DNA from: a virus
Lineage: Duplodnaviria; Heunggongvirae; Uroviricota; Caudoviricetes
Virus record (IMG/VR): IMGVR_UViG_3300045923_000005
Span: 51,764-115,763 of that record
Strand: one strand, 5' to 3'
Length of the DNA: 64,000 bases
Below are positions 21,441 to 55,413 of this stretch, one piece after another. The notes under the pieces are model-generated. The model was not told where the DNA came from. It worked only from the letters and a program-made list of their open reading frames with translations, and did no database searches. A program made the translations under genes and the position numbers. Position 1 is the first letter of the stretch. The number at the start of each line of letters is the position of its first letter.

Positions 21441-21971
21441 TTACACTGCGCGGACGATGTCGTAGTTCGTAAAGGCAAATGATGCATCAAACGTTAAGAC
21501 TTCAGTGGCAGGAGTCTTGGTGCTGAACTGGATTCCGGAAAGGCTCACAGGGAACACGTCCTTGAAATACAGATTCATAATCGGGTTGTTCTTGTTGGTG
21601 AATACCGTCAGCTGGCAATCACTGTACTGTGGCTTCTTGTTCTGGGTCTGGAGACGCTGTTGCATCCGTAGATTCTGGTACTGCTCAAAGTTCTCAGGGA
21701 AGGTGATTCCCTTCAACCAATCATTGACACTTGTCCAAGACCACATCGGTTCATCAAGCAAACAAGAAAGGTTCAGCTGCTCATATTGCATCTTGTCGGC
21801 AGGAACAGGTGCAGTAATGAACGGAGTTGGCTGCATTGCTGGACTCGTCATGATGCCAGGAGCATTGACGGTCTGCACAAAGAACTGAATGTAAGGTAAA
21901 CGAGAAAAGCTCAGGGCAAACTTATTACCCTGAGCTAGATTCTGGTCTGAAGGAGGAGCATTCACACCCAT
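21441..21971 (-). CDS. hypothetical protein (176 aa), possibly structural
   Basis: ORF in the late-gene block downstream of gene 23. Confidence 0.4.
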   Translation of the reverse strand: MGVNAPPSDQNLAQGNKFALSFSRLPYIQFFVQTVNAPGIMTSPAMQPTPFITAPVPADKMQYEQLNLSCLLDEPMWSWTSVNDWLKGITFPENFEQYQNLRMQQRLQTQNKKPQYSDCQLTVFTNKNNPIMNLYFKDVFPVSLSGIQFSTKTPATEVLTFDASFAFTNYDIVRAV

Positions 21972-21988: not shown

Positions 21989-22654
21989 TTAAGATGGTAG
22001 AGCTACAATCTCAACCTTTGCGATGCTGATGCTGCTGTTGGCAACCTTGGCGGTTGATGCGCCAACACTAAAGGCACTACCTGGAGTATTGGCCATACCT
22101 GCGCCATATCCCTTAAAGGTCAATACAGGGTTGGTTACAACACTGTGAGAGATTGTCAACTTCTGGGCTGCAGTGCTATCGAATGTTGCCGTGTTGGCTT
22201 GATAGTTTGTGTTGCCTAGGACACCTGCTGGGTCAACGATCATGAAGTTCGCATGAGCACCAACATTCTGAGCGACCATGTAGAACGTGCCGTTCAACTT
22301 CAATGCTGGACCAACTGGGATAGATGGGCCTGGGTAAAGGTTTGGACCGAAGCCTGGGTTGCTGTTAGCCCAAGCAGAGACGTCATTGGCCAACTGTACA
22401 CCAGTCACTGCAGTTGCTTGAGAGTAAACAACGTTGTCAGTGGTGTTGCCGTTGGCACCAACACGGATGTTCAGGTTGTAAGCAGGACCGCCGACAGCGC
22501 CGAACAGAGATACTGTTACAATATGTCCGTTAGCCAAGTTGGCAGCATTGATAGGAAGAACGCCTGTGATCAGAGTTTCAACATTTGCGACTTGGATAAG
22601 CGCAGATACGTTACCACTGATGATTGTATTTGCACCGGTATTTGCTAGTGACAT
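21989..22654 (-). CDS. hypothetical Ala/Asn/Gly-rich protein (221 aa), probable virion/decoration protein
   Basis: Follows the gene-23 terminator; ATAAATAG late-promoter-like box and AGGAAG SD upstream. The composition resembles outer-capsid or fibre proteins. Confidence 0.45.
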   Translation of the reverse strand: MSLANTGANTIISGNVSALIQVANVETLITGVLPINAANLANGHIVTVSLFGAVGGPAYNLNIRVGANGNTTDNVVYSQATAVTGVQLANDVSAWANSNPGFGPNLYPGPSIPVGPALKLNGTFYMVAQNVGAHANFMIVDPAGVLGNTNYQANTATFDSTAAQKLTISHSVVTNPVLTFKGYGAGMANTPGSAFSVGASTAKVANSSISIAKVEIVALPS

Positions 22655-22777: not shown

Positions 22778-24169
22778 TTACTTCAGACCGGTTACGATGA
22801 ACTTGCGGTAGTAGCAGTTGCTGTTTGCGGTGATAACACCCAACTGAGATACAGTGCCACCAGCGTATGGGTTTGCAACGATACCGTAACGTGTCTTGAA
22901 GCCGATCTTTGGCTGGAAGGTGTTAGGGTCGATTGCGCGAACCATCTGAAGTGGAACGTATGGACAGTAGAACAGGCCTGCGTCGTATGCCGTTGCGCCC
23001 TTGAATCCTACGACGACGAAGTCGGCGCCAGATACAGAGTATGGATCAACGTAGACCTTCAAGCGACCGAACAAGGTGCCGGCGAAGGTGTTACCCGTAT
23101 CGTCAACATTCAAGTTGGTGTTGTTGGTCAAAGCAGACTGGTAGTCCAGCATGCCAGACATTGCCAATGCAGATGCGATGTCGGTAGACACGATCAGCAT
23201 GTTGCCCTTGCCACGACGAGTGTCCTTGGCAATCTTGTTGGCTTCACGCTCGATCTGCATGATCAAGCTCTTGTAGGTTTCAACCTGCCAGCGGCCTGCG
23301 GTATCACCACCAGAGATTGCTAGGTTGTAGAAACCTGCATTCGTGGTGCCGAACTGAGCGCCGATGTTTGCCGTTGCATAGATCGTACGAACGACTTCAC
23401 GGTTGATTTCGGCCAAGATTTCAGTAGACAGAATGTTTGACAATTCTGTTTCTGCATCCAAACCATGGATTGCCTTAAGGTCCTGAGCAAGTTCCAAGGT
23501 GTAGTCAGACTTCAAACCACGAGTGTTTGCAGTGACGGTGACCTTTTCAATGCTGAAGCCCATTTGGTTCCAGGTGTTTGCACCACCCAAATCTTCGCCG
23601 ATACCGGTTGGGAAACCGTAACCAGTGTTGGCTAGACCGAAGGTCGTGCCGTTTGCTGGGTTACCAGTGGTGGTATTGTCGAATGGGGTGTTGATACCGT
23701 TACCAGAGTAAGCGGTGTTGGCTTCATTGTACAGAGCTTCCGTATCCGTTGCAACGTTAGATGCTACATTGCTGGTGTACTTAGAACGCATTGCGAAGAT
23801 CAGGCCAGTTGGGCCGGTCATTGGCTGAACGCCGCAGACATCGTATGCGATCAAGTTTGGAAGAGAACGACGAACCAAACTTACAAGGATTGGATCGAAA
23901 CCAGCGACTGGACCTGCTGGGTTTGCTGCGCCAGTGTAACCACCGGTGCCAACAGACATAGAAGGAGCAGTTTCAGACAGAACCGCTGGACGGTCGAAAC
24001 CATTACCAGCGCCGTCATCGCCGCGTGGAGTCTTGAATGCGCCTTCCTTCTCCTGGTTCTCAAGCAATACGCTAGCGATAGCGCGCTTGAATGGAGAAGT
24101 GATTGCGCCGAACTGAGCGTGGTCTAGGACCGGTGCCCACTTGTCTTGAAGTTTTTCTGATAGATACAT
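22778..24169 (-). CDS. 23: major capsid protein gp23
   Basis: LIAYDVCGVQPMTGPTGLIFAMR versus T4 LIAFDICGVQPMNSPTGQVFALR; YTLELAQDLKAIHGLDAETELSNILSTEILAEINREVV versus T4 YSIELAQDLRAVHGMDADAELSGILATEIMLEINREVV. Confidence 0.95.
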   Translation of the reverse strand: MYLSEKLQDKWAPVLDHAQFGAITSPFKRAIASVLLENQEKEGAFKTPRGDDGAGNGFDRPAVLSETAPSMSVGTGGYTGAANPAGPVAGFDPILVSLVRRSLPNLIAYDVCGVQPMTGPTGLIFAMRSKYTSNVASNVATDTEALYNEANTAYSGNGINTPFDNTTTGNPANGTTFGLANTGYGFPTGIGEDLGGANTWNQMGFSIEKVTVTANTRGLKSDYTLELAQDLKAIHGLDAETELSNILSTEILAEINREVVRTIYATANIGAQFGTTNAGFYNLAISGGDTAGRWQVETYKSLIMQIEREANKIAKDTRRGKGNMLIVSTDIASALAMSGMLDYQSALTNNTNLNVDDTGNTFAGTLFGRLKVYVDPYSVSGADFVVVGFKGATAYDAGLFYCPYVPLQMVRAIDPNTFQPKIGFKTRYGIVANPYAGGTVSQLGVITANSNCYYRKFIVTGLK

Positions 24170-24202
24170 TTCTGTGATCCCTTATTGTGTTGAGTTCAAA
24201 CC

Positions 24203-25384
24203 TTATCGAATACTGCGGGCAACTGCTGCTACCACTGGGTCAACCTGCTTTCCGGCTGGTTGGCTTGCTGGCTGCTCTTCGGTGCTCTCTACTAGAGCAA
24301 CTTGAGATGGCTTTGCTGCCGTTCCGTTCTTGACCTGACTGAAGTAGCTCTCGCGAATCACTTTCAGTTTCGTCTCATACTCACCTGCTGTGGTGAACTC
24401 AACACCCTCTGCGAGTGTCTTTACTTTTGCTGCTTGTGTAGCGGTCAAACCCTCACAAACCTTGCTAGTAACTTGTACTTTGGTAGCTTCGTTGATCTTC
24501 TTTGAAAGTTCAACATTGCTATTCATAGAGTTATTTAGTTTTTCCGTTAGTTCGGCAACCTCTGCAGACAAGCTTGCTACAACATCAACCTTCTCAGAAG
24601 GGATTTCGATGTAGTGCTCGGTGAACAGAGACTTCAAACCATTCAGGAAGTCTTCTACGATCTCAGCCTTTAGGCCGGACTCGATAGCGACAGTGTTTTC
24701 GCGCTTCCACTCTTCAACCATAGCGGTCAAATAAGTGTCTACGTTCTCTTCAAGCTCGGTCTTGATTTCCTCAACTGACTGCTCGGCAGCAGCTAGGATA
24801 TCAGCCTCAAGTTCTTCAACAACCATTACTGCCTTGGCAATGACGGCTGCTTCGAAAATCGTGGTTAGCTTGGTCGTGAATTCTGGAGAGAAGGTCTCAC
24901 CTGAAAGGATGGCGGTGACGTCTTCCTTACAGTCCTTAGACTTCATCTTTTCCTTCATCTTGGCGACCTTTTCAGCCTTGGCTTCTGCAATCTCTTCTGC
25001 AGTAAGCTCTACGTCCTCAGACGTTGGCTTCATATATTCTGCGCCGGTCAACTTACCGCCAGTGGCTGGCTTGTCACCGTTTAGTTCTTCTGGAGATACC
25101 AATTCGCGACCTTCTGTCTCACCAGGCTGTGATGGAAGCTTCTTGATGCCTTCCTTAGAGTCTGATGGTGGCTTGACGCCTGGAGGAGTTGCTTGTGGGC
25201 GAGCAGCGGCAGTTTCCTTACCGACTTCTCCACCCTGTGGGTCTTCAAGGGTTTGACCAGACAACTTGACTTCACCAGTTGACGCTGGCTGTGCAGTTTC
25301 ATGCTTCATTGGCTCTGAGTACGCACTGGCGCGAGACTTGTTCAGAACTTCTTGAGCAGCTTCAGATAGTGACTTGTGAGACAT
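24203..25384 (-). CDS. 22: prohead core scaffold protein gp22
   Basis: 393 aa, strongly acidic, predicted coiled coil, multiple L/I-x-E sites, positioned between gp21 and gp23 as in T4. Confidence 0.75.
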   Translation of the reverse strand: MSHKSLSEAAQEVLNKSRASAYSEPMKHETAQPASTGEVKLSGQTLEDPQGGEVGKETAAARPQATPPGVKPPSDSKEGIKKLPSQPGETEGRELVSPEELNGDKPATGGKLTGAEYMKPTSEDVELTAEEIAEAKAEKVAKMKEKMKSKDCKEDVTAILSGETFSPEFTTKLTTIFEAAVIAKAVMVVEELEADILAAAEQSVEEIKTELEENVDTYLTAMVEEWKRENTVAIESGLKAEIVEDFLNGLKSLFTEHYIEIPSEKVDVVASLSAEVAELTEKLNNSMNSNVELSKKINEATKVQVTSKVCEGLTATQAAKVKTLAEGVEFTTAGEYETKLKVIRESYFSQVKNGTAAKPSQVALVESTEEQPASQPAGKQVDPVVAAVARSIR

Positions 25385-25437: not shown

Positions 25438-26088
25438 TTACAGTTTGCCCAACATGGTTGAGAATATGTTCAAGGCCACTTCCTCAAGTTGCTTGCTCTT
25501 GGCTGATTCGATCAAACTCTTAGACTCGGCGACGTCTGCTTCCAAGAAGATAGATCCATTCCAGATCCACTCTTTTCCTTCCATGATACCATTGACGAAG
25601 GCATCTGGTGCTGATGGATCAGATACGATGTCACCGGCAGTAGCCAAGCGATAATCGTTCTGAACTACAGAACCACGTTGCGCGTCTTCTTTCAATGTTC
25701 CTAGACCGCGTGAAGAGACGCCGAACTTAACATCGTCATCAATTAGACGCTTTACAGTCTCACCGATTTGGGTGCTCAGGATCTTGGCACGACCGATCCA
25801 ATTGTTACCATCCTCGGTTAGAGAAAGGATCTTGTGAGATGCTCGGTCATAGTTGATAGTTGGAGTTGGAGGATGTCCAAGCTCACCAACGGCACGACCA
25901 GACTCAATCATCTCCTTGCGGTAACGATTGACTTCGCGCTCTAGAATGTTCTTTGGGTACCAGCGACGGTTGCGGTTCTTCAACTCAGATTGCAGCCAAA
26001 CTCCTTCGATGAAGTAATTACGGCCACCATTTGGTGCAGCTTCCACAAGGACAGCGTTATCCCAATTTGCTTCTCTAATCAGTTTCAT
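25438..26088 (-). CDS. 21: prohead protease gp21
   Basis: GELGHPPTP, GVSSRGLG, DPSAPDAF match T4 gp21 GELNHPPR, GVSSRGLG, GPSAPDAW. Confidence 0.9.
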   Translation of the reverse strand: MKLIREANWDNAVLVEAAPNGGRNYFIEGVWLQSELKNRNRRWYPKNILEREVNRYRKEMIESGRAVGELGHPPTPTINYDRASHKILSLTEDGNNWIGRAKILSTQIGETVKRLIDDDVKFGVSSRGLGTLKEDAQRGSVVQNDYRLATAGDIVSDPSAPDAFVNGIMEGKEWIWNGSIFLEADVAESKSLIESAKSKQLEEVALNIFSTMLGKL

Positions 26089-26090
26089 CT

Positions 26091-26369
26091 TTACAATCCT
26101 AGTGCGTGTCTACGACGCAAACTTCTACGTCTCTTTAACAGGCTACGGGCCAACTTGGCTCGGCGCTTAATCTTTCCCTTTCTGGCTCCACGTTTGCGGT
26201 GAAGCTTCTCAGTCGTGCTCATCCTGACCAAACGTCCACCACGCAATGTAAAACCTTTTACATTGCTGGTACGAACGTTGCGCTGAACCTTACCATTGCG
26301 GATGCGGACTTTAATCCTGCGAATCCTTGGTCCTTTATTTTCAGCCAGATGGTCAAGAAAGCTTTCCAT
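26091..26369 (-). CDS. highly basic 92-aa protein (Arg/Lys about 35%), candidate internal/DNA-binding protein
   Basis: …KRGARKGKIKRRAKLARSLLKRRRSLRRRH…; located in the head-assembly block. Confidence 0.45.
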   Translation of the reverse strand: MESFLDHLAENKGPRIRRIKVRIRNGKVQRNVRTSNVKGFTLRGGRLVRMSTTEKLHRKRGARKGKIKRRAKLARSLLKRRRSLRRRHALGL

Positions 26370-26378
26370 CGTTTACTC

Positions 26379-26879
26379 TTAGTGTGGGAAGTCGCTACCG
26401 TTGTACCCAACGTATGCGTTCGCCCAACCACCTGCTTGGTTTTCCTTGTTCACAGTCATGATCAAGGTGTATGAATCGAATGGCTCTGCACCGGTGACTA
26501 CCAATTGGATGTCGCCAGTTGTGTTTGCCAACGCGGTGTTGGCAATATTAGATGCCGCCAGTGGATTGTTAATGTACTGAGGAATATCACCTGATGTACG
26601 AGAACCCAAAATGACCGCATCGCTGTTAGCCGCACCGTTCTTACCAACCCACTGAACTTGCATATAACCGTTCGCTAGACCGGATGAGTAAACAACACGA
26701 GCTATAGAAAGGAGAGGCAAATGGGCATTTGGAGAAGTGTTCGCTCCAAACAAAGTATTGGCCTGAACGACAGTGTTGCTGTTGTTCGTTGCCGCGTTAA
26801 AGAATCCGACTACCTTGACGACTGCTTTCCAAGTGTCGTCATAGATGATCTGGACTTCTGGTGTATTTGCCGTTGCCAT
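26379..26879 (-). CDS. hypothetical head-block protein (166 aa)
   Basis: ORF between the internal-protein genes and gene 21. Confidence 0.4.
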   Translation of the reverse strand: MATANTPEVQIIYDDTWKAVVKVVGFFNAATNNSNTVVQANTLFGANTSPNAHLPLLSIARVVYSSGLANGYMQVQWVGKNGAANSDAVILGSRTSGDIPQYINNPLAASNIANTALANTTGDIQLVVTGAEPFDSYTLIMTVNKENQAGGWANAYVGYNGSDFPH

Positions 26880-26889
26880 GTATTATTCC

Positions 26890-28074
26890 TTACTTCAAAT
26901 GTACATCTACAAAATCGACGACCTTCTTCAGACCATCGGGGCTGCTATTTACGAGCGCTTCAACCTTGCGCTTATTGTGTTCGCGCATAAGACTATGTAG
27001 TCGCATGATACGTGCGGCAGTTCCGTGGTGGACCATCGCATTGGAACCGTTCTTAAATCTTACAGTTGCGGGAGTCTTAGACTTCGCAATGCTGTGTAGA
27101 GAATGGATCGTGGCTTCGACGATCGTCTCCTCACCGGTCAACAGAGCCTTCATAGGCTTGGACACTGGATGTTCTTTTGGTCCATGAGTAGTCGGATCAC
27201 CATGGCGACCCTTTAATAGTCTGTGGATGGCAATACGTTCCTTGCTACCGATCTTTGGCTTGGATGCCTTGATGGCCTTTTCTACAGCGGCTGGATTATA
27301 GGCTTCATCCATAAACTCTTCACCAACCAATGATGCCTGGTGCTTGAACTTGGCATAGTGATGGTTGGCCAATTCTGTTTCGCCGGCAGCATAGTGATTG
27401 GCGGCAGCCTTCAGATGGGTTGCAGCCTTCTCACCATAACGGGATTCAACATGGTTCAGCAAGTGGTGAGCTTTTGGGCGACCGGGTAGCTGAGAGGAAT
27501 GGACGTATGCACCAAACAGAGTATCAGACGGTCTTGTGTTTTCGTCGATGCCTGCCTTGTCGTTAGCAGAAGTGTGCGTGCGCAGAACTGTTTCGCCTTC
27601 ATGATTGGTAGAGATGTGGTGCTTTTCGCCACGATACTCGGTATCACGACCTTCGCCACTCTTTGTCAAACCCAAGTGTTTAGCAACAGTATCAAGCTTC
27701 TTAGTGGTGCCGCCACGGAACCAAGACACGTGCGCGCCGTTCTGCTTCTCTTGTTCCATGTGAGTGAAACCGTGCTTCTTGAAGACACCCTTGGCAGTGT
27801 GGTGCTTCTGTAGATTACCAAACTCACCCTCTTCGAGAGTTTCCTCAGTAGCAGTGATGGCTGTACCAATAGTAGAGATCTTGTGCTGACCTAGAGTCTG
27901 AGGATTGTATGGAATAGCTAGTTCAATATCTAGATTATCATTCTTGTATGTAGCTACACGTTGACCATTAGGGAACAGCCGTATACCCTTACGCCGCATG
28001 ATCAGAACTGTTGGGGGATCCTGAAATGCGGTAAGCTCGTTGATAGGGGACTTGATCTCACTTAGTCGCTTCAT
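26890..28074 (-). CDS. His-rich protein (394 aa) with EETLEE/EETIVE motifs, candidate internal head protein
   Basis: about 9% His; motifs TEETLEEGEF and GEETIVEA resemble the EETLDE linkers of the adjacent 768-aa protein. Confidence 0.55.
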   Translation of the reverse strand: MKRLSEIKSPINELTAFQDPPTVLIMRRKGIRLFPNGQRVATYKNDNLDIELAIPYNPQTLGQHKISTIGTAITATEETLEEGEFGNLQKHHTAKGVFKKHGFTHMEQEKQNGAHVSWFRGGTTKKLDTVAKHLGLTKSGEGRDTEYRGEKHHISTNHEGETVLRTHTSANDKAGIDENTRPSDTLFGAYVHSSQLPGRPKAHHLLNHVESRYGEKAATHLKAAANHYAAGETELANHHYAKFKHQASLVGEEFMDEAYNPAAVEKAIKASKPKIGSKERIAIHRLLKGRHGDPTTHGPKEHPVSKPMKALLTGEETIVEATIHSLHSIAKSKTPATVRFKNGSNAMVHHGTAARIMRLHSLMREHNKRKVEALVNSSPDGLKKVVDFVDVHLK

Positions 28075-30380
28075 TATTTCTTCTTGCTGTTCAAATGTCT
28101 TCGTACAGAACGCTTCAACTTGTTTCTTGTATGTATGCCGGCAGCATCGTGGTTAGGATTATCACCTGACTCTACGACCGTCTCTTCATCGATGTGGCCA
28201 GAGTCACCATGGTGATTCCATAAACCAACTTTTCGGCCTGTTTCTTTATGGACAGCGTAAGTCAGACCACCGGTAGGACCCTGCACATGCGCGGTCTTAG
28301 ATGCGTGCTCTTTCCACTTATCGAAATCTGTATAGACTGTTGATGTTTTATTCTGCTCTGTGATTTCTTCTGATACGTTCTTGATCTTGTCCCAATAATG
28401 AGATGACATGTGACCGTGGCCATGTCTCCAAGCAGTCATTCGAGCATCCTTCTCCATACTCTTCGCTCTATCCGCGTAAGTGTTAGGAACATTTTGTGAA
28501 TTGTATTCATGACGCTTAGAGAAATGTGTGTGCAATTCTTCTGGTGTCATTGCACCTAGTTTTTGCTTGTGTTTGATAACACTAGATGGCATGCGCGCAC
28601 CTTCATCAAGTACATCTTCGTCAACTGTATCTTCCTTTACAGTCTTAGAACCTTTGGCAATAGACACATGTTCCTTACGAACAATGTGATAAGCATCAGA
28701 ATCAGGCTTAATGATATGAACTTCGGTCTTGAAAGGAACCATTTGACTAAACGTATGTTCACGATGAACAGAATGGACAACACCCTCGTGTTCCTTACCG
28801 TCTTCGTGCCATTTTACATTCCTTCCTTCCCAAGGATGGTTGTTGATACGACCTGAGCGAATTTCGTCGAGAGTTTCTTCGCTTACAGCAATGTGGTGCA
28901 TCCAACCCTTGTTGGCACCAGGATGCCAAACACCGTGAATGCCGCCGGACTTGTTACGAGCGCTGACGTGACCCTGACCAGAATGAAGTTCTAGACCCAA
29001 AGCCTCAGCATGCTTGTGCCAAGTTGTAGCATCTGTGTGCTTAACTACATTGTGTTCTGCTTCGGCCAATGATTCATTCTTGGCGCCATAGTAAGCACCA
29101 AGAGCGCGCTTGATGCGCTGCTTCTTAGAATCACCCTTGAACATCTTGTTCCTAGAGTGTACAAAGTCATCAACGTAATCGGAAGCAGTAGCACCCTTGC
29201 CTAGAGTCTCGTGGATGGTTTCCTCGAACTTGGCAAGATGATGGAAATACTTGGATTGGATAGCAGAGGCCAATGGATGGTTGCGCCCATGAGAAGCACC
29301 AAGATTATTGTGGACAGCCGCGACATGACGCTTCATTGCTGAATGTTCTTCAGGAGTACCGAAGTGCTTAGCGAGCATCAGGCTATTTTCAGCATGATAG
29401 TTCTCGTCTTCGTTCTTGCGGAACTTATTCAACATGGCCTTGGTTTCATCCAAAGTCTCTTCAGAAAGCTTCTTGAACTCTGACTTGGTGTGACCGAAAG
29501 GATAGCCGTTGACTTCCTTTGGATGACCTTCCCAATTGATGTGATGGTATGGTTGATCGATGCCCTGATGAACTGCTTGATAGGTACCCTTGGTTCCTTT
29601 CTTTACAACATGCTCACCCTCGGTGCCGCCGTCTGTGTCCTTAGTTGCAACTACAGTATCACCCTTCTTGAAAGCCTCATCAAGAGTTTCTTCATGAAGA
29701 GCTAAGTTCTTTGGTGAATGTTGAGAAGAGGTGCCATCACGAAACTCAACGCGATGATGCTTAGATATTGGACCAGCTGGACCACCAATATTTCCATAGG
29801 AATGACCGGCCACCTGACCTACCATTCCAAAGTGAGGATGGCCACGATCAGTAACTTTGACTTTTGCTCCAACTGGGAACTTGACCTTGCCTTCATCAAT
29901 TGTCTCTTCACCAATGTGGCCAAAGTTCTGAGCGAACTCAGCCATCTTAGCAGCATGACCGCCAGCGGCCTTACCCTTGGCAATATCAGCAGCGGTGATC
30001 TTAGCGTCTTCCGGCTTTCCTAGCCAACGATGGAAGGCTCCCTTCTTCACGTGGATGGCTGTGGTTTCATCCAAGTCTTCCTTGATGTGTTCGAGTTTGT
30101 CCTGGTGGTGCCATCCTGTACCACCACCTTCATGAGCTACTCTGAAAACGTACTTGGCATTCGCACCTTCACCTTCAACATGGTGGGCAGCATCAATGTG
30201 TCCAACAGCACCTGTTTGCTTGTGCTTGACTGTATCACCTATATGGAACCCTGTATAGGCCTCTCCAACAACCGGTGTATCCAGACGACCTACGTTTGGA
30301 CTGATAGTTATTGCTTGACTTGACTTAGATAGCTTCTTAGCTTCCTTTGCCTCGGCATAGAATGCTTTTAGAACGCCCAT
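28074..30380 (-). CDS. large His/Lys-rich repeat protein (768 aa) with recurrent (S)EETLDE linker motifs, candidate internal head protein
   Basis: Internal repeats of G-D/A-x-V-K…G-x-V-G-H domains, separated by LHEETLDEA, LSEETLDET, VSEETLDEI, GEETIDEG, EETIHET, DEETVVES. Each contains L/I-x-E, the T4 gp21 cleavage consensus. Confidence 0.65.
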   Translation of the reverse strand: MGVLKAFYAEAKEAKKLSKSSQAITISPNVGRLDTPVVGEAYTGFHIGDTVKHKQTGAVGHIDAAHHVEGEGANAKYVFRVAHEGGGTGWHHQDKLEHIKEDLDETTAIHVKKGAFHRWLGKPEDAKITAADIAKGKAAGGHAAKMAEFAQNFGHIGEETIDEGKVKFPVGAKVKVTDRGHPHFGMVGQVAGHSYGNIGGPAGPISKHHRVEFRDGTSSQHSPKNLALHEETLDEAFKKGDTVVATKDTDGGTEGEHVVKKGTKGTYQAVHQGIDQPYHHINWEGHPKEVNGYPFGHTKSEFKKLSEETLDETKAMLNKFRKNEDENYHAENSLMLAKHFGTPEEHSAMKRHVAAVHNNLGASHGRNHPLASAIQSKYFHHLAKFEETIHETLGKGATASDYVDDFVHSRNKMFKGDSKKQRIKRALGAYYGAKNESLAEAEHNVVKHTDATTWHKHAEALGLELHSGQGHVSARNKSGGIHGVWHPGANKGWMHHIAVSEETLDEIRSGRINNHPWEGRNVKWHEDGKEHEGVVHSVHREHTFSQMVPFKTEVHIIKPDSDAYHIVRKEHVSIAKGSKTVKEDTVDEDVLDEGARMPSSVIKHKQKLGAMTPEELHTHFSKRHEYNSQNVPNTYADRAKSMEKDARMTAWRHGHGHMSSHYWDKIKNVSEEITEQNKTSTVYTDFDKWKEHASKTAHVQGPTGGLTYAVHKETGRKVGLWNHHGDSGHIDEETVVESGDNPNHDAAGIHTRNKLKRSVRRHLNSKKK

Positions 30381-30399: not shown

Positions 30400-30927
30400 T
30401 TAGCCTATGTGGCTAACATGCTTGACGTCTACACCCTTAGAAGTGTGAGCGACGGTGAACTTGTGATGACCAGCAGCGCCTAGAACGTGATATGCGTTCT
30501 CGTGCTTGTCTGGATCAATGTTGCCGTTGTCACGATGAATGCTATAGTCTGGATGATCGAACGCAGTGAAAGTACCGCGACGAGAAATTGCTGGGCAGTG
30601 ACCAGATGCGCAAGCATGGACCGCGTGTGCCATATGCTCTACAGTACCGGCTTGAATGACTTTCTCATCCAATGCTTCTATTTCAGCATGGGAGAATTCT
30701 TCTTTTACAGAACCCTTGGATGGCAATGTTGGCTTGCCTTTGATGGCTGGCTTCTTCCAAACCTTCTTAACGCCACCAGATACACCGGCTTCGCCAAGCA
30801 ACCTGCCGGCGACGACTACCTTCTCTTCAGCAATGGTAGCATCGACTTTTTCTTGAATCTTTTCGTCAAGAGCAGCCTTGAACTCGATTGCGTTCTTGTC
30901 TTGTGCAAGTTGAACTAGTGATACCAT
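30400..30927 (-). CDS. hypothetical prohead-core-like protein (175 aa), His-rich C-terminus
   Basis: occupies the gp67/gp68 position downstream of the portal gene; contains EIEALDEK and HMAHAVHACASGHC. Confidence 0.45.
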   Translation of the reverse strand: MVSLVQLAQDKNAIEFKAALDEKIQEKVDATIAEEKVVVAGRLLGEAGVSGGVKKVWKKPAIKGKPTLPSKGSVKEEFSHAEIEALDEKVIQAGTVEHMAHAVHACASGHCPAISRRGTFTAFDHPDYSIHRDNGNIDPDKHENAYHVLGAAGHHKFTVAHTSKGVDVKHVSHIG

Positions 30928-30982
30928 TGTGAAACTCTCTTAAGGTTTGGAGGAGACTGTTATTATTTAGCGAATCGTGATG

Positions 30983-32650
30983 TTATGAAAGAAGATTGTC
31001 CACACGCTTGTTCAACTCTTGTGAATTAGCCGTTGGTTGTGGCTCTGCAGCGCCAGCAGGAGCGGCTGGCTTAGCAGCCGGATTACCCGGACCAGGTAGG
31101 TTAGGATTTGGAGGAGAGCCACCGCCAGAGTCCTCGGCTTCCTTAGCCAATGTGTCCTGTTCTTTCTTGATTTCTTTGTCCATCTTCTTGATTTCATCTT
31201 CGTCAAGCTGAAGGATGTTCTCTTGGACCCAACGCTTGCTAAAGTATTCGCCAACATATGGAGTCAACAAGATCAGGGTGTTGACGCGGTTAGTGATTAG
31301 CTCGGCTTCCTTCAATTCCGTGAAGTTGTTATCCATGACGAACTTGTAATGGCAATCTTGCTTGAACTGATCCCATTCTTCAAGAGTACAGACACCCTTC
31401 AGGGTCAGCTGACGCTTCAGCAACTCATCAAACAGGATCGTGAAACGATTGCGCAGCTTGACGATGAATTTGTTGAACTTGATTTCATCGCGTGTGATGG
31501 TATCAGTCTTGCCCAAAGAGAAACCTTGGTTGGTTTCCATACGGGACACAGGAACGTTCAATGCGCGGTAGAGCTTCTTCTCGAAGTACAGGACAGAGTC
31601 CATGTTGTCGAAACCCTGACCGGCTGGAAGTGTCGTGATTTCAGTACTCTTATCACCTGAGCGACGTGGCATCCAGAAGTCTTCAAGCATAGAAAGATGC
31701 TTGCGATCATCCATAACCTGACCAGTGCTTGCGTCATATGTTAGCTTGTTGCGGAACTTGGTCATCAAGTCCTTCATGTAGGCTTCCGCCTTAGCACGAG
31801 GAAGGTTGCCAGTATCACAATAGAACACACGACGCTCAGGAGCGCGGGTTACTTTGTAGATGACGGTTGCGTCTTCGATGAACCGCAATTGGTTCATTGG
31901 ACGAATGGCCTTGTGTAGATAGCTCAGCACAACAGACTTGGCCGGGTCGAACAGACCAGAAGTCAAGTGGATGACTGAGTCTTCAGATAGCTTGACGCCA
32001 CCGGAGAAATTGCCGATGATCTGAGGAGTCTGAACGTTGTTGTTGACGATCTTTTCGTTGTAAAGATAGAAGACTTCAATCTTCTTGATTACGTCTACGC
32101 CTTCTTCGTTCTTCTCTTTCGTGATGTTACGAATCTTACGGATACGACGTGGGTCAATGAACGTCAGCTGCTGGATACCATCGCGAGGGTTCTCCGGATT
32201 GATTGTGACGTTCCAATAGGCTCGTCCGTCAACGTACCAACGACGGAAGATGTCAGATCCATAGCGGTGGAAGTCGAGAAGCTTAAGAACATTCTCGAAC
32301 TCATCCCGAATCATAGTCTTAATGTTGTCTGGCTGGTCGAGCTCGTCTAGTTCGATCTGGACGCACTTGCCACGCTCGTCATGGACGATCGCTTCATTGA
32401 TAATATCGTCGATGGCATTTTCCATTTCTGGTTGCATAGCCATCGTGCGGTACTTGGAGAGAAGGTCAACTTCACTTCTGTATGACCCATCGAGATCGAC
32501 GTAAATTCCGTAATGTGCACCGGAAGTGATATTGACAGCGCCGTCATCCAACGCAGGTGAAACAACGCTATTTACTATCGGCTGTTCGCCGTCTTCTTCC
32601 TTACCATCGCGTTGGATAGTGAAGCCAAATAGTTTGATAGGTGCTGCCAT
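30983..32650 (-). CDS. 20: portal vertex protein gp20
   Basis: DIFRRWYVDGRAYW versus T4 DHFRRWYVDSRIFF; VTRAPERRVFYCDTGNLPRAKAEAYM versus T4 [26 protein letters not shown]. Confidence 0.9.
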   Translation of the reverse strand: MAAPIKLFGFTIQRDGKEEDGEQPIVNSVVSPALDDGAVNITSGAHYGIYVDLDGSYRSEVDLLSKYRTMAMQPEMENAIDDIINEAIVHDERGKCVQIELDELDQPDNIKTMIRDEFENVLKLLDFHRYGSDIFRRWYVDGRAYWNVTINPENPRDGIQQLTFIDPRRIRKIRNITKEKNEEGVDVIKKIEVFYLYNEKIVNNNVQTPQIIGNFSGGVKLSEDSVIHLTSGLFDPAKSVVLSYLHKAIRPMNQLRFIEDATVIYKVTRAPERRVFYCDTGNLPRAKAEAYMKDLMTKFRNKLTYDASTGQVMDDRKHLSMLEDFWMPRRSGDKSTEITTLPAGQGFDNMDSVLYFEKKLYRALNVPVSRMETNQGFSLGKTDTITRDEIKFNKFIVKLRNRFTILFDELLKRQLTLKGVCTLEEWDQFKQDCHYKFVMDNNFTELKEAELITNRVNTLILLTPYVGEYFSKRWVQENILQLDEDEIKKMDKEIKKEQDTLAKEAEDSGGGSPPNPNLPGPGNPAAKPAAPAGAAEPQPTANSQELNKRVDNLLS

Positions 32651-33141
32651 TAAATAACCCTGCCTTGTCTATCTCTATTTAGGGACCGACCTTTTCGGTA
32701 ACCGGTTGGAGGGAGGACAGTTTTCAGTATGTAGATATTGTCCTGGCCGTTGGTGTACCAAACGCAAGGTGACTTACCCTTCATACGTTCAGAGATGATC
32801 TCTCGTGCCTTCTCGCTGTGACGCTTACCGTGCATTGGATTAGCCTGTCCGTGGTGCTGATGCTTGCCTCGGTTGCTCTCGCTTATCCTACGCTTCTGTT
32901 CTTCTGACTTCGCAACACCAGTAAAGGTTTTGCGTGCAGTGTGGGAGTTTACGATGCGGGTTGCTTCTTCCTTAGTTACTAGACCAAGAAGACCCTTGTA
33001 GGCTAGCTCGTCTTCCCATCTACCGAATTGTAAGAACAATTGGCGATGAGCCTCAGCATGTTCTTCAACAGTCAAAAGTGCAATGTTTTCAGGGGAATCG
33101 GAGCCACCGGAATGGCGAGGTACAATGTGATGTTTGTGCAT
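32650..33141 (-). CDS. HNH homing endonuclease with NUMOD3 repeats
   Basis: HHIVPRHSGGSDSPENIALLTVEEHAEAH (HNH) plus GVAKSEEQKRRISESNRGK / GKRHSEKAREIISERMKGK; inserted between gene 20 and gene 19. Confidence 0.75.
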   Translation of the reverse strand: MHKHHIVPRHSGGSDSPENIALLTVEEHAEAHRQLFLQFGRWEDELAYKGLLGLVTKEEATRIVNSHTARKTFTGVAKSEEQKRRISESNRGKHQHHGQANPMHGKRHSEKAREIISERMKGKSPCVWYTNGQDNIYILKTVLPPTGYRKGRSLNRDRQGRVI

Positions 33142-33337: not shown

Positions 33338-33904
33338 TTACTGCGCTGCGATTGCGAAGTCTCCAGCGCCAGAGCTCAAGTAGTATTGAACTGCTAGGGT
33401 GACGGTGAACTCTTCGATCGTATCATTCTGGTTCCAGTCGACTTCGATTGGAGAAACATCCAATGGCCAGATACCGATGAATTGGTATTGAGCGATTGGA
33501 GAACCAACCTTGCCGTACTGAGTAACAAGAGCATCAGAACCGTATCCGCCGTCGATTACAGTTGCTGCTGGATTGCGCAAGTTAGCCGTTGGATCATTGA
33601 TACCATTCGCCCATTGTTCGAAAGCAGAACGCAAGGTGAAATCTTCGTCGTTGATGACTTGGATAGTCCAGTCAGCAAACGTGCGGTTGCCCGCAAACTT
33701 AACTTCACGGCCGAAGTAGTACAAAGGAGCCATGCCAATAGAGGTACCAGGAAGCTGAGCGGCCTTGACTCTGAAAGGAGTCTGAGAGCCGGCAGCGCCT
33801 GCAAGTTGGATCCAGTTAGGGAAAGGAAGCTGCACGTCGAAAAGGTTCGCACGAGCGCCGTCAAATGCCAAACTGGTACGAAACTGAGTCACATCGAAAG
33901 CCAT
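33338..33904 (-). CDS. 19: tail tube protein gp19
   Basis: GNRTFADWTIQVINDEDF / FTVTLAVQYY versus T4 GDRTFDDWTVTVMNDEAH / FEVTLALDYW. Confidence 0.85.
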   Translation of the reverse strand: MAFDVTQFRTSLAFDGARANLFDVQLPFPNWIQLAGAAGSQTPFRVKAAQLPGTSIGMAPLYYFGREVKFAGNRTFADWTIQVINDEDFTLRSAFEQWANGINDPTANLRNPAATVIDGGYGSDALVTQYGKVGSPIAQYQFIGIWPLDVSPIEVDWNQNDTIEEFTVTLAVQYYLSSGAGDFAIAAQ

Positions 33905-33908
33905 ACTC

Positions 33909-34301
33909 TTACACTCCTATCCAAATTCGTTTGCCGGTAACTGGATCTTTCTTCCAACTCTTACCAGCAAAGGCTGCGCCCATCTTTTGCTTGGACTCGG
34001 CCGTGTGGGACTTACCTTTCATGCCCACGTGGTTCTTTGTTATATTTAGTCTGGCTGCTTCAGTATGCTTATACGCACGCTTTGCCGCTTTCTCTTCTTC
34101 AGACTTCTTCAATCCTAAATGTGCTCGTCTATTCTTTTCCTTAGTTTCTTCAGTATGAGATTTCCCGTACCAAAATGCCTCTTTTCCTTTAGGGACAGGA
34201 GGTCCTGGAATCTTCTCACAACCTTCTGGTCGTGTTAGATTAAGAGTATCACCCATTGTTGGGTTCCACTCTAATCCTAATGCTTCAGCCAGTCCTCTCA
34301 T
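33909..34301 (-). CDS. NUMOD3-repeat DNA-binding protein, paralogue of the 17099..17536 product
   Basis: N-terminus MRGLAEALGLEWNP versus MSRQLADVLGLEWNP; repeats GKSHTEETKEKNRRAHLG / GKSHTAESKQKMG. Confidence 0.5.
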   Translation of the reverse strand: MRGLAEALGLEWNPTMGDTLNLTRPEGCEKIPGPPVPKGKEAFWYGKSHTEETKEKNRRAHLGLKKSEEEKAAKRAYKHTEAARLNITKNHVGMKGKSHTAESKQKMGAAFAGKSWKKDPVTGKRIWIGV

Positions 34302-54534: not shown

Positions 54535-55413
54535 TTAGTCTTTATTGTGGTCAGGATGAAATTGAGGATGGTGTTCTTTGACCCAATCCATAATTTCCTT
54601 GTGTTTTCCTTTGCCGGCAGTCCCTGCTTGGCGATGTTTGCGGTCGAACTCAGCCACATCACGCACCGGTCCACCTACACTACGCTTCTTTGCCTTAATG
54701 TATTCACCTAGATTATCCCCAAATTTATGGGGTTTGCCGCCATTAGGTGTAGGAACCATTAGTCCGTGGTGCTTAGGGATCTTCTTAATCTCGTGCGCAC
54801 GGACAAACCAACGGTCGTGCTCACCACTAGCCGCGTGCTTGACTTTGCTATCGTCTATTACTGTAACGTGTCCGTCTTTAGTTGCGTGGTGAATACGCTC
54901 GCCCTTATCGTTGAATACGTGCGTAGAGCCTTTAGTGCTCCAAAGAGCAACGTTGCGTCCTACGTATCCCATTCCCTTGCCACCGAATCCTCCATCACGG
55001 TGGGGAGCCTCGTGCTTAGGAGTGCGTCCTGTTACCTTACGCTTGAACTCGCTCTTGAATTTCTGCTCATGAGGGGATAGGACTAACGGGTGAGCAGGAG
55101 CAAAGGAATAGTATCCGTGCTTATGAAGATGCTCGTGAAACTCTTTGGTGATAGTGTGGTGATCTAGCTTGGAAGGCTTGAACTCACCTAGCATCTTGTG
55201 ACCTTCGTCATTATCAATATGCTTGTGTTCTTTTGGAGCATACTGACGTTCGTCTAAGACTTCTTCGGTTAGGTGTCCGTCATCGAAGTCATCGGTCTTT
55301 TTGATGTAATGGATAACTGGAGGTTTGGATGCGTGAAGCATTAGGACGACATGAATAGGTTCGTCATGTCCTCCAGTCTTTGCTTCTGCTAGGTATTGCT
55401 TCAGGCTTATCAT
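54535..55413 (-). CDS. His-rich protein (292 aa) with TEEVLDE motif
   Basis: about 11% His; HLTEEVLDERQ resembles the EETLDE motif of the 768-aa and 394-aa proteins. Confidence 0.55.
   Translation of the reverse strand: MISLKQYLAEAKTGGHDEPIHVVLMLHASKPPVIHYIKKTDDFDDGHLTEEVLDERQYAPKEHKHIDNDEGHKMLGEFKPSKLDHHTITKEFHEHLHKHGYYSFAPAHPLVLSPHEQKFKSEFKRKVTGRTPKHEAPHRDGGFGGKGMGYVGRNVALWSTKGSTHVFNDKGERIHHATKDGHVTVIDDSKVKHAASGEHDRWFVRAHEIKKIPKHHGLMVPTPNGGKPHKFGDNLGEYIKAKKRSVGGPVRDVAEFDRKHRQAGTAGKGKHKEIMDWVKEHHPQFHPDHNKD

What the first reader, a model, noticed from the sequence alone, without database searches (positions are those of the whole stretch)
26890..30380. Giant His-rich repeat protein (768 aa) and His-rich paralogues with recurrent EETLDE linkers between portal and prohead-protease genes
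The 768-aa protein has about 9% His and multiple internal repeats of a small G-D-x-V-K…G-x-V-G-H domain, SH3/Tudor-knot-like. The repeats are separated by nearly invariant S-E-E-T-L-D-E linkers, at least six copies. The adjacent 394-aa protein carries TEETLEE and GEETIVE, and a 292-aa His-rich protein at 54535 carries TEEVLDE. The 175-aa gene downstream of the portal also ends His-rich. Each linker contains L-x-E, the gp21 cleavage consensus. The genes occupy the gp67/gp68/internal-protein slot of the T4 head module. This could be a polyprotein processed into many metal-binding (His-rich) internal head peptides. I am not aware of a described equivalent.
Basis: partly seen in the sequence, partly recalled or inferred. 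Interest (0 to 1): 0.7.

Follow-up and report, generated by a model that had tools for sequence, protein, structure and literature searches.

The report
Protease-cut cargo polyprotein in phage head
An uncultured T4-like phage encodes, between its portal and head-protease genes, a 768-residue histidine-rich protein made of about eleven unrelated small modules separated by doubled copies of the head protease's cutting motif, so it is most likely chopped inside the young capsid into many small internal proteins, a layout I did not find described for T4-type phages.

Summary
The sequence observation holds. p768 (28074-30380, minus strand) has 9.5% His. It carries six EE[TV][LIV]xE linkers, against 0.008 expected by chance. 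It lies in a T4 head module: portal, p175, p768, p394, p166, p92, gp21 protease, gp22, gp23.

Two corrections apply:
- The modules are not sequence repeats. Only the linkers repeat.
- Each linker is really a tandem pair of gp21-type sites (φ-x-E, then E/D-T-φ-x-E). All 21 [LIVM]xE motifs of p768 sit at module borders, with gaps alternating about 5 and 43-79 residues.

p768, p92 and the unlinked p292 start with a peptide like the T4 capsid-targeting sequence MKTYQEFIAE. Seven related loci carry a polyprotein in the same slot. Core head proteins between these loci are 46-79% identical. The polyprotein aligns over only 9-26% of its length, because modules are exchanged, and exchange points coincide with φxE sites.

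Best reading: a targeting-sequence-led polyprotein is loaded into the prohead core and cut by the adjacent S77 protease into roughly 5-9 kDa His/Lys-rich internal proteins. Cleavage, retention and ejection are all inferred.

Metal binding is unsupported: the His residues are dispersed. I rate this a new variant of a known kind.

The parts
28074..30380 (-). p768: polyprotein of about 11 unrelated modules. N-terminus is MGVLKAFYAE, which resembles the T4 capsid-targeting sequence. 9.5% His, no Cys.
30351..30380 (-). p768 residues 1-10, MGVLKAFYAE: candidate capsid-targeting peptide (compare T4 IPII/IPIII MKTYQEFIAE). Position 8 is Y rather than L/I.
   Evidence: PMC9026906
30066..30086 (-). Linker 1, IKEDLDE (aa 99-105): tandem φxE sites.
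29892..29915 (-). Linker 2, IGEETIDE (aa 156-163): tandem φxE sites.
29676..29699 (-). Linker 3, LHEETLDE (aa 228-235): tandem φxE sites.
29445..29468 (-). Linker 4, LSEETLDE (aa 305-312): tandem φxE sites.
29208..29228 (-). Linker 5, FEETIHE (aa 385-391): single site, IHE.
29061..29075 (-). Degenerate linker ESLAE (aa 436-440), between module b and module e. These two modules occur in the opposite order in P0002.
28863..28886 (-). Linker 7, VSEETLDE (aa 499-506): tandem φxE sites.
28602..28640 (-). Linker 8, VKEDTVDEDVLDE (aa 581-593): triple φxE site.
28356..28376 (-). Linker 9, VSEEITE (aa 669-675): tandem φxE sites.
28170..28193 (-). Linker 10, IDEETVVE (aa 730-737): tandem φxE sites.
29700..29891 (-). 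Module 3 (aa 164-227): predicted five-stranded Tudor/SH3-like barrel.
29916..30065 (-). Module a (aa 106-155, KGAFHRWLGK...AAGGHAAKMA). Found at varying positions in 14 proteins of the local set, and also as stand-alone small proteins.
29076..29207 (-). Module b (aa 392-435, DFVHSRNKMFKGDSKKQRIKRALGAYYG): the most widespread module, present in 110 of the 130 proteins in the local comparison set.
26890..28074 (-). p394: conserved N-terminal domain (aa about 14-75) and C-terminal domain (aa 321-394, after the invariant E320|A321). The middle is hypervariable and bounded by TEETLEE, VGEEFMDE and GEETIVE. Its start codon overlaps the p768 stop codon (TAATG).
30400..30927 (-). p175: N-terminal residues 1-45 resemble T4 gp67 (prohead core). 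The C-terminal half is rich in His and contains the protein's 2 Cys, where T4 gp67 has an acidic tail.
26091..26369 (-). p92: very basic (pI 12). N-terminus is MESFLDHLAE, targeting-sequence-like. Its C-terminal tail ...RRRHALGL resembles the T4 gp68 tail ...KRRKALGLS.
26379..26879 (-). p166: conserved member of the block, His-poor, with no φxE motif. Function unknown.
25438..26088 (-). gp21-type prohead serine protease (Peptidase_S77), the presumed processing enzyme. The GELGHP and GVSSRGLG motifs align with T4 gp21.
54535..55413 (-). p292: unlinked candidate internal protein. It has the targeting-like peptide MISLKQYLAE, a second invariant site at ..VLDE55, then a conserved 237-residue domain with many invariant His. 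A late-promoter-like CTAAATA motif lies 28 nt upstream.
30964..30970 (-). CTAAATA, a T4-late-promoter-like motif upstream of p175. No further such motif occurs before gp22. The genes from p175 to gp21 are separated by 19 nt or less, or overlap.
30983..32650 (-). gp20-type portal protein, the upstream boundary of the block.
22778..25384 (-). gp22 scaffold (24203-25384) and gp23 major capsid protein (22778-24169). The capsid protein has VLSE66|T within two alignment columns of the T4 gp23 maturation site FLTE65|A.

Best explanation
p768 is a cargo polyprotein of the prohead core.

**Proposed sequence of events**
1. It is transcribed late, in one tightly packed block with the gp67-like, gp68-like and gp21 genes.
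2. Its N-terminal peptide, which resembles the T4 capsid-targeting sequence, brings the whole chain into the scaffolding core.
3. When the adjacent S77 protease is activated, it cuts after Glu at the doubled φ-x-E sites that separate the modules.
4. This frees about 10-11 different folded, His- and Lys-rich proteins of roughly 43-79 residues. The module size range brackets the 76-residue T4 IPI*.
5. These stay in the head with the DNA and probably leave through the tail at infection.

One targeting peptide would therefore load many cargoes. Because each cargo is bracketed by protease sites, modules can be swapped between phages without disturbing assembly.

**Related proteins in the window**
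- p394 uses the same logic, with conserved end domains and a replaceable middle.
- p292 and p92 are single-cargo versions, each with its own targeting peptide.
- p175 is a gp67-like leader carrying a His-rich module.

**Shown versus inferred**
- Shown: anatomy, statistics, synteny, module shuffling, and the fold of one module.
- Inferred: targeting, cleavage, retention, ejection, and what the modules do.
For: 1. **Context.** Portal_T4, Peptidase_S77, T4_CASP and Gp23 flank the block in T4 gene order. The p175 N-terminus aligns collinearly with T4 gp67 (hhalign P 6e-4). The p92 C-terminus aligns with the T4 gp68 C-terminus (P 1e-3).
2. **Targeting peptide.** T4 IPII and IPIII begin MKTYQEFIAE. 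Compare p292 MISLKQYLAE, p92 MESFLDHLAE and p768 MGVLKAFYAE. Homologues begin MGSFKQFLEE, MKSFEEFLTE, MKTFKEFITE and MKTFNQFLTE. T4 mutagenesis assigns targeting to residues 4 and 7, and processing to residues 8 and 10 (PMC9026906).
3. **Cleavage motif.** gp21 cuts after L/I-x-E (PMC9026906). All 21 [LIVM]xE motifs of p768 lie at module borders. There are 9 tandem pairs against 0.58 expected (none of 5,000 shuffles reached this), and gaps alternate about 5 and 43-79 residues. In 20 close homologues a gap of 5 occurs 44 times against 2.1 expected.
4. **Selection on the peptide.** Linkers use different synonymous codons, so selection acts on the peptide and not on a DNA repeat.
5. **Module borders.** 135 of 152 non-redundant module N-termini have φxE ending within 3 residues inside to 8 residues upstream of the predicted module start, against 21% background. 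The same module follows either a linker or the N-terminal targeting peptide.
6. **Shuffling.** 16 seed modules occur in different orders and combinations across 29 proteins.
7. **Conserved slot, variable content.** The slot is conserved in 7 of 7 loci. Core head proteins are 46-79% identical between loci, while the polyprotein aligns over only 9-26%.
8. **Late expression.** xTAAATA lies 28-42 nt upstream of 7 minus-strand genes, six of them head or tail genes or p292 and one an HNH endonuclease-like ORF, against 0.9 expected.
9. **Contrast with the scaffold.** gp22 has a φxE site about every 15 residues, which fits degradation. p768 spares the interiors of its modules.
Against: - There is no experimental evidence. 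No cultured relative exists: tblastn of p768, p394 and p166 against 50,697 phage records finds nothing.
- p768 has Tyr, not Leu/Ile, at position 8 of its N-terminal peptide, so removal of that peptide is uncertain.
- The gp67 and gp68 similarities are weak (hhalign probability 20-28%). The gp68 match lies in a compositionally biased basic tail.
- The block sits exactly where T4 keeps core proteins that are degraded and expelled, so retention of the fragments is not assured.
- No module has an assigned function.
- Only one module was modelled, at moderate confidence (pLDDT 70).
Confidence: 0.6

Rival explanations
1. Sacrificial core filler. p768 and p394 are extra scaffolding-core mass, like T4 gp22, gp67 and gp68. 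They would be cut by the protease so that the pieces leave the head before DNA packaging. The modules would have no function after assembly.
For: - The genes lie between a gp67-like and a gp68-like gene, the slot of T4 core proteins that are cut into fragments and mostly expelled (PMC9026906; PMC5694885).
- The protease motifs are abundant.
Against: - Cleavage sites are excluded from module interiors and spaced 43-79 residues apart, unlike gp22, which has a site about every 15 residues.
- Folded products of 5-9 kDa are the size of T4 IPI* (76 residues), which is retained (PMC3012670).
- Individual modules are conserved across hundreds of otherwise unrelated proteins and also exist as stand-alone genes. 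That argues for a function of their own.
- The module content is hypervariable, whereas the recognised scaffold protein gp22 is well conserved between the same loci.
Confidence: 0.2
2. Uncleaved multidomain protein. The EETLDE segments are just acidic flexible spacers in a 'polyvalent'-type or structural head protein that is packaged or used whole.
For: - Multidomain phage proteins packaged whole are known, for example the N4 virion RNA polymerase (PMC5512222).
- Acidic linkers are common in multidomain proteins (general knowledge).
Against: - The invariant feature across homologues is φ-x-E, not acidity. Examples are NKKLDE, GSLSE, LPQVEE and SQLQE.
- The sites are doubled at a fixed 5-residue spacing.
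- Linkers and N-terminal targeting peptides are interchangeable upstream of the same module.
- An 85-kDa chain of 11 domains could not pass through the tail as a folded unit. This last point is inference.
Confidence: 0.1
3. One reading: the products are dedicated metal-binding (His-rich) peptides that load the head with Zn, Ni or Cu.
For: - His is 12-fold enriched.
- p292 has many invariant His.
- p175 has an HACASGHC segment.
Against: - In p768, p394 and p292 the His residues show no excess of HH, HxH or HxxxH spacings over shuffles.
- There is no Cys in p768 or p394, and no metal-binding family hit.
- Conserved modules a and b keep only 1-2 His in their conserved motifs as read from the homologue sequences, so most His look compositional.
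- An alternative reading is that dispersed His plus Lys act as pH-titratable counter-ions for packaged DNA. This is inference and untested.
Confidence: 0.15
4. Tail fibre, adhesin or other external virion protein.
For: Large repetitive-looking ORFs in phage structural regions are often fibres (general knowledge).
Against: - The gene lies in the head morphogenesis block and is translationally coupled to head genes.
- There are no fibre or adhesin family hits.
- The modelled module is a Tudor/SH3-like barrel.
- The modules are not sequence repeats.
Confidence: 0.02

Closest known systems
T4 internal proteins IPI, IPII, IPIII and Alt (loaded via the capsid-targeting sequence and processed by gp21)
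   Same: - An N-terminal peptide of about 10 residues resembling MKTYQEFIAE, with hydrophobic or aromatic residues at positions 4 and 7 and φ-x-E at positions 8-10.
- A gp21-family protease is encoded alongside.
- The predicted products are small and Lys-rich.
- The content is hypervariable between related phages, as described for the T-even internal-protein genes (PMC3012670).
   Different: - T4 internal proteins are separate genes, each with one targeting peptide and one cargo. Here a single targeting peptide precedes about 11 cargoes, separated by doubled internal sites.
- The composition is His-rich (9-12%) rather than only Lys-rich.
- The genes lie inside the gene 20-21 interval rather than elsewhere in the genome.
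- There is no sequence homology to IPII, IPIII or Alt.
T4 prohead core proteins gp67 and gp68
   Same: - Same genomic slot.
- The p175 N-terminus aligns with gp67 residues 1-45.
- p92 shares the basic ...ALGL C-terminus of gp68.
   Different: - T4 gp67 ends in a poly-acidic tail, whereas p175 ends in a His-rich domain.
- Three extra genes (p768, p394, p166) are inserted between the two.
- T4-like cyanophage ACG-2014d has only one 107-residue acidic ORF in this position.
Inner-body and ejection proteins of φKZ, 201φ2-1 and SPN3US
   Same: - Head-internal proteins are cut after Glu at a 3-residue motif by a gp21-related protease.
- Redundant cleavage sites occur in the φKZ propeptide regions.
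- Copy number and content are variable (PMC9026906; PMC5694885).
   Different: - The motif there is S/A-x-E, not L/I/V-x-E.
- Those proteins have long propeptides (over 100 residues) followed by one mature product. They are not a string of many retained modules.
- No Pfam hit was found for p768 or p394, so PF12699, the family of the SPN3US and φKZ head paralogues, was not matched.
Polyvalent proteins of phages and conjugative elements (Iyer, Burroughs, Anand, de Souza and Aravind 2017, PMC5512222)
   Same: - Many (2-15) unrelated domains lie in one polypeptide.
- They are encoded next to virion genes and are predicted to be delivered with the DNA.
- Their architectures are shuffled between relatives.
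   Different: - Those proteins are built from recognisable enzymatic effector domains (zincin peptidase, ADP-ribosyltransferase, ParB, PBECR, MuF) and, where processed, are proposed to be cut by their own peptidase domains. None of these domains is found here.
- The modules here are tiny (about 45-80 residues).
- Processing is assigned to the prohead protease, acting at regular sites between modules.
Eukaryotic and viral polyproteins cut at regular linkers (profilaggrin, nematode polyprotein allergens, picornavirus polyproteins)
   Same: One translation product is cut at recurring linker motifs into many small proteins. Profilaggrin is also His-rich (abstracts).
   Different: This is an analogy only. 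Those have unrelated proteases, tandem copies of the same unit (filaggrin, the nematode allergens) and no capsid targeting.

Membership tests
T4-type internal head proteins loaded via a capsid-targeting sequence | N-terminal peptide of about 10 residues resembling MKTYQEFIAE (hydrophobic or aromatic at positions 4 and 7, L/I at 8, E at 10) | tested here: met
   p292 MISLKQYLAE and p92 MESFLDHLAE fit fully. p768 MGVLKAFYAE fits except for Y at position 8. Homologues begin MGSFKQFLEE, MKSFEEFLTE and MKTFKEFITE. The T4 reference was read from NC_000866.
T4-type internal head proteins loaded via a capsid-targeting sequence | A gp21-family prohead protease is encoded by the same phage | tested here: met
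   Peptidase_S77 at 1.4e-32; 38% identity to T4 gp21 over 143 aligned residues; the GELxHP and GVSSRGLG motifs are conserved.
T4-type internal head proteins loaded via a capsid-targeting sequence | Actual cleavage after L/I-x-E during head maturation | not testable with these tools
   Only the motif, its non-random placement and its conservation could be shown.
T4-type internal head proteins loaded via a capsid-targeting sequence | Presence inside mature heads and ejection with the DNA | not testable with these tools
   No cultured relative and no proteome are available.
T4-type internal head proteins loaded via a capsid-targeting sequence | Sequence homology to IPII, IPIII or Alt | tested here: not met
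   BLASTP E-values are above 0.05 for all pairs. T4 internal proteins are themselves reported to share only the targeting peptide (PMC3012670), so this is not a strict requirement.
T4 gp67 (prohead core protein) | Homology to gp67 and a position directly after gene 20 | tested here: inconclusive
   The position requirement is met. A profile of five p175-type N-termini against gp67 gives a collinear 1-45 to 1-45 alignment, P 6e-4, but probability 28%. There is no Pfam or PHROG hit.
T4 gp68 (prohead core protein) | Homology to gp68 and a position directly before gene 21 | tested here: inconclusive
   The position requirement is met. The C-terminal 34 residues align at 47% identity, P 1e-3, probability 20%, but the region is strongly basic.
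Polyvalent proteins (Iyer et al. 2017) | Many unrelated domains in one polypeptide, next to virion genes, with architectures shuffled between relatives | tested here: met
   About 11 modules; 16 module types permuted across 29 proteins; head-module context.
Polyvalent proteins (Iyer et al. 2017) | Hallmark effector or peptidase domains (zincin metallopeptidase, ADP-ribosyltransferase, DdrB-ParB, PBECR, MuF) | tested here: not met
   No Pfam, PHROG or NCBIfam hits for p768, p394 or p175, and no Pfam or NCBIfam hits for p292.
SH3-like / Tudor small beta-barrel fold (module 3 of p768) | Five-stranded barrel with structural similarity to solved Tudor, PWWP, chromo or KOW domains | tested here: met
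φKZ / SPN3US inner-body (ejection) proteins | PF12699-type domain and an S/A-x-E cleavage motif | tested here: not met
   No Pfam hit was found. The recurrent motif here is [LIVM]-x-E.
Tail fibre / adhesin families | A recognisable fibre or adhesin domain, or tail-module context | tested here: not met
   No family hits; head-module context.

The most novel reading that the evidence does not exclude
The portal-protease interval of this phage clade would be a cassette-exchange platform for capsid-delivered effectors.
- One targeting peptide loads a string of about ten different miniature proteins.
- Each is bracketed by doubled prohead-protease sites, so any module can be inserted, deleted or swapped between phages without touching assembly.
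- After cleavage the 5-9 kDa products travel through the tail with the DNA and act in the first seconds of infection, as anti-defence or host-takeover factors in the manner of T4 IPI*.
- The dispersed His and Lys residues would make them DNA counter-ions whose charge switches off at cytoplasmic pH.
Probability: 0.3. Interest if true: 0.8.

Novelty: new variant of a known kind. Interest (0 to 1): 0.65.

Why it matters
T4 internal proteins are the textbook case of proteins injected with phage DNA, and the T4 capsid-targeting sequence is used as an engineering tool to pack foreign proteins into capsids.

If this reading is right, three things follow:
- The same targeting peptide and L/I-x-E logic operate in distant, uncultured T4-like phages whose capsid protein is only about 55% identical to the nearest cultured phage.
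- Nature has extended the scheme to a multi-cargo polyprotein with redundant double cleavage sites. That is a ready-made design for packing many payloads per targeting peptide.
- The module pool becomes a candidate catalogue of very small early-acting phage proteins, none of which has a known function. The exhaustive search returned 800 cluster representatives matching p768.

The proposal is directly testable by mass spectrometry or by co-expression with the protease.

Tried and rejected
- **Family searches.** Pfam, PHROGs and NCBIfam on p768, p394, p175, p166 and p92, and Pfam and NCBIfam on p292, gave no meaningful hits. The only results were GLTSCR1 at E 0.02 and phrog_1690 at E 0.033, both below thresholds, and a weak phrog_696 hit on the p394 C-terminus.
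- **Cultured phages.** tblastn of p768, p394 and p166 against 50,697 phage records found nothing. megablast of 14 kb gave only a 67-nt hit in a cyanophage capsid gene.
- **Solved structures.** A PDB sequence search with p768 found nothing.
- **Internal repeats.** BLAST self-comparison and Smith-Waterman scoring with shuffles gave no significant similarity. The 'repeat protein' description is rejected.
- **Clustering of linker-delimited segments.** Single-linkage clustering chained everything into one cluster, because some linkers were missed. I replaced it with seed-module mapping.
- **His spacing as a test for metal-site motifs.** No enrichment was found, except spacing 6 in p175.
- **Distant module-b proteins.** P0042 is not in a head module (locus L005, downstream of the ribonucleotide reductase genes). 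The head-slot claim is therefore limited to the close, His-rich group. tblastn of P0042 against phages gave only marginal hits.
- **Structure of p394.** The AlphaFold2 model is mostly low-confidence (pLDDT 54). The BFVD search returned only uncharacterised phage proteins.
- **Source names for stand-alone modules.** All are unnamed metagenomic proteins.
- **Exact T4 late promoter TATAAATA.** Only one copy was found, upstream of gp22, which is no more than chance. The relaxed xTAAATA motif upstream of structural genes is enriched.
- **Literature.** Six full-text searches found no description of a His-rich or multi-cargo internal-protein polyprotein. The library is incomplete.

Full report
**1. 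What is in the sequence**

The region is a T4-type structural block on the minus strand. The gene order is:
- tail sheath, 34305-36071
- a NUMOD3 ORF
- tail tube, 33338-33904
- an HNH/NUMOD3 ORF
- portal, 30983-32650 (Portal_T4, 1e-162)
- p175, 30400-30927
- p768, 28074-30380
- p394, 26890-28074
- p166, 26379-26879
- p92, 26091-26369
- prohead protease, 25438-26088 (Peptidase_S77, 1.4e-32)
- scaffold, 24203-25384 (T4_CASP)
- major capsid protein, 22778-24169 (Gp23)

T4 itself has the order 18-19-20-67-68-21-22-23.

The phage has no close cultured relative. The capsid protein is about 55% identical to those of T4-like cyanophages. p768, p394 and p166 find nothing in 50,697 phage records. The exact p768 sequence occurs on four independent contigs.

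**2. Check of the observation**

His content is 9.5%, 7.9% and 8.0% in p768, p394 and p175, and 11.6% in p292. It is 0.4-1.3% in portal, protease, scaffold and capsid protein. Pooled, that is a 12-fold enrichment, and Lys is 1.7-fold enriched.

EE[TV][LIV]xE occurs six times in p768, where shuffles give a mean of 0.008. It occurs twice in p394 and once in p292. The linkers use different synonymous codons, so they are conserved as peptide, not as a DNA repeat.

The claim of a repeated domain does not hold at sequence level. There are no off-diagonal BLAST hits. With linkers removed, the best of 66 module pairs has z = 3.0.

**3. The linker is a doubled protease site**

T4 gp21 cuts after Glu in L/I-x-E (PMC9026906).
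- p768 has 21 [LIVM]xE motifs, against 10.7 expected, and every one lies at a module border.
- Nine are tandem pairs 4-5 residues apart, against 0.58 expected. None of 5,000 shuffles reached this number.
- Gaps between sites alternate about 5 and 43-79 residues.

So 'SEETLDE' is really L-S-E|E-T-L-D-E|. In 20 close homologues a gap of 5 occurs 44 times, against 2.1 expected.

The window's own scaffold protein and T4 gp22 have a site about every 15 residues. That is the pattern of a protein meant to be degraded.

The capsid protein has VLSE66|T, which aligns within two columns of the T4 gp23 maturation site FLTE65|A. The protease N-terminus KLIRE aligns with the T4 'LIE-9' site.

**4. Targeting peptide**

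T4 IPII and IPIII begin MKTYQEFIAE (read from NC_000866). Residues 4 and 7 matter for targeting, and residues 8 and 10 for processing (PMC9026906).

In the window:
- p292: MISLKQYLAE
- p92: MESFLDHLAE
- p768: MGVLKAFYAE (Y at position 8)

In relatives: MGSFKQFLEE, MGSFKQYLKE, MKSFEEFLTE, MKSFKQYLSE, MKTFNQFLTE and MKTFKEFITE.

The p292 family (11 members) has this peptide, a second invariant φxE at residue 55, and then a conserved 237-residue domain with many invariant His. That is the classical layout of a T4 internal protein.

**5. Comparative evidence**

p768 has 151 word-indexed hits and 800 cluster representatives by exhaustive phmmer. All are partial. They share single modules placed at different positions in the hit proteins.

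Mapping 16 seed modules on 29 proteins shows different orders and combinations, with linkers between them. Of 152 non-redundant module N-termini, 135 (89%) have [LIVM]xE ending within 3 residues inside to 8 residues upstream of the predicted module start, against 21% at random positions.

The same module is preceded by an internal linker in one protein and by the N-terminal targeting peptide in another. Module a is one example..IKEDLDE|TTAIHVKKGAF in p768 against MGSFKQFLEE|KNLAIHVKKGGF in P0008. Module c is another: KEETIDE|LSKKTLGS against MGKFLQE|LSKKTYGA.

Some modules also occur as stand-alone genes of 57-137 residues. One of these has its own T4-like targeting peptide (P0155).

The polyprotein lies in the same slot in 7 of 7 loci examined, from contigs of 36.8 to 177.5 kb, four of them 167-178 kb. 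Between loci, portal, gp21, gp22 and gp23 are 46-79% identical, mostly over the full length. The polyprotein aligns over only 9-26%.

**6. Neighbouring genes**

- **p175.** A profile of p175-type N-termini aligns collinearly with T4 gp67 residues 1-45 (P 6e-4). This leader is fused to module a, b or c in other phages.
- **p92.** Its basic C-terminus ...RRRHALGL aligns with the T4 gp68 tail ...KRRKALGLS (P 1e-3). Both matches are weak and rest partly on synteny.
- **p394.** It has conserved N- and C-terminal domains. The C-terminal domain follows an invariant E320|A321 and has pLDDT 83-91. The hypervariable middle is drawn from the same module pool.
- **p166.** It is conserved, His-poor and free of φxE sites.

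Genes from p175 to gp21 are separated by 19 nt or less, or overlap (TAATG at the p768/p394 junction). A late-promoter-like CTAAATA lies upstream of p175.

xTAAATA lies 28-42 nt upstream of seven minus-strand genes: sheath, HNH, portal, p175, gp22, the ORF after gp23, and p292. Random positions give 0.9.

**7. Interpretation**

The most economical reading is a polyprotein led by a targeting peptide that is incorporated into the prohead core. The adjacent protease would cut it into about 10-11 folded, His/Lys-rich proteins of 5-9 kDa.

Their size range brackets T4 IPI* (76 residues), which is retained and ejected while folded (PMC3012670; PMC9026906). From this I infer retention and ejection. 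These steps, and cleavage itself, are not shown.

The main rival is that the pieces are expelled like gp22, gp67 and gp68 fragments. The spacing of the sites, the conservation of the modules and the hypervariability of content argue against that, but do not exclude it.

The metal-binding idea has no support. His residues are dispersed, Cys is absent from p768 and p394, and there are no family hits.

**8. Relation to known systems**

- It works like T4 internal proteins, but with many cargoes per targeting peptide.
- It resembles Aravind's 'polyvalent proteins' in architecture, but lacks their hallmark domains (PMC5512222).
- It resembles φKZ and SPN3US inner-head proteins in being cut after Glu, but the motif and layout differ.
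- T4-like cyanophage ACG-2014d has a single small acidic ORF in this interval.
- Six literature searches found no description of such a polyprotein.

**Verdict:** a new variant of a known kind. Interest 0.65.

Noticed in passing
window 26379-26879 (-): p166 is a conserved 160-179-residue protein present in 6 of the 7 related loci, inside the cargo block. It is His-poor (1.2%), has no [LIV]xE motif, and has no family or phage hit. Its role is unknown; a core, shell-lining or decoration protein are possibilities.
   Followed up: partly
window 22693, 25417, 30969, 32681, 33178/33163, 36105, 55441 (-): An xTAAATA motif, resembling the T4 late promoter TATAAATA, lies 28-42 nt upstream of 7 of 52 minus-strand gene starts, against 0.9 expected. 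Six of the seven are head or tail genes or p292; the seventh is an HNH endonuclease-like ORF. The exact TATAAATA occurs only once, before gp22.
   Followed up: partly
window 32650-33141 (-) and 33909-34301 (-): Two homing-endonuclease-like ORFs interrupt the sheath-tube-portal block: one HNH plus NUMOD3, one NUMOD3 only. Related loci carry HNH_3 or NUMOD3 ORFs at the same junctions.
   Followed up: partly
window 21989-22654 (-) and 21441-21971 (-): Directly after the capsid gene lies a 221-residue ORF rich in Ala, Asn, Gly and Thr, with a late-promoter-like motif and no family hit. It is followed by a 176-residue ORF with a weak tail-tube (gp19) hit. Related loci also have a second Phage_TTP_2 gene after gp23.
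   Followed up: no
L005 8001-9341 and proteins P0022-P0120: A large, less His-rich group of proteins shares only module b (DFVHSK..GDSKKQRIKRALGAYY). It uses EEVELDE / EEVEVNE-type linkers and N-termini such as MSGTFKFKRFYSE. Some carry a HAD-phosphatase-like module (..YDVDETL..). P0042 is not in a head module; it lies downstream of the ribonucleotide reductase genes, near a DUF6321 protein.
   Followed up: partly
window 53249-54532 (+): A 427-residue ORF runs convergent to p292, with the two stop codons 2 nt apart. It has no Pfam hit.
   Followed up: no
window 11803-12270 (+): An ORF with 16.8% His lies antisense inside the 832-residue ORF at 10409-12907. It is probably a spurious reading frame, not another His-rich gene.
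   Followed up: no
L014 10656-11348: One related phage has an extra 230-residue, 10% His protein with the targeting-like N-terminus MGVFKEYLNE, inserted between the gp68-like gene and the protease.
   Followed up: no
window 43046-43999 (-): An SPFH/Band_7 protein is present (3.7e-30). A Band_7 gene also lies upstream of the structural block in related locus L003.
   Followed up: no
window 30400-30693 (-), p175 residues 79-175: The C-terminal half of the gp67-like protein holds the only Cys pair in these proteins (HACASGHC) and shows an excess of His pairs at spacing 6 (4 against 1.0 expected, P 0.009). It is conserved in L001, L011 and L014. It could be a genuine metal site, unlike the rest of these proteins.
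   Followed up: partly
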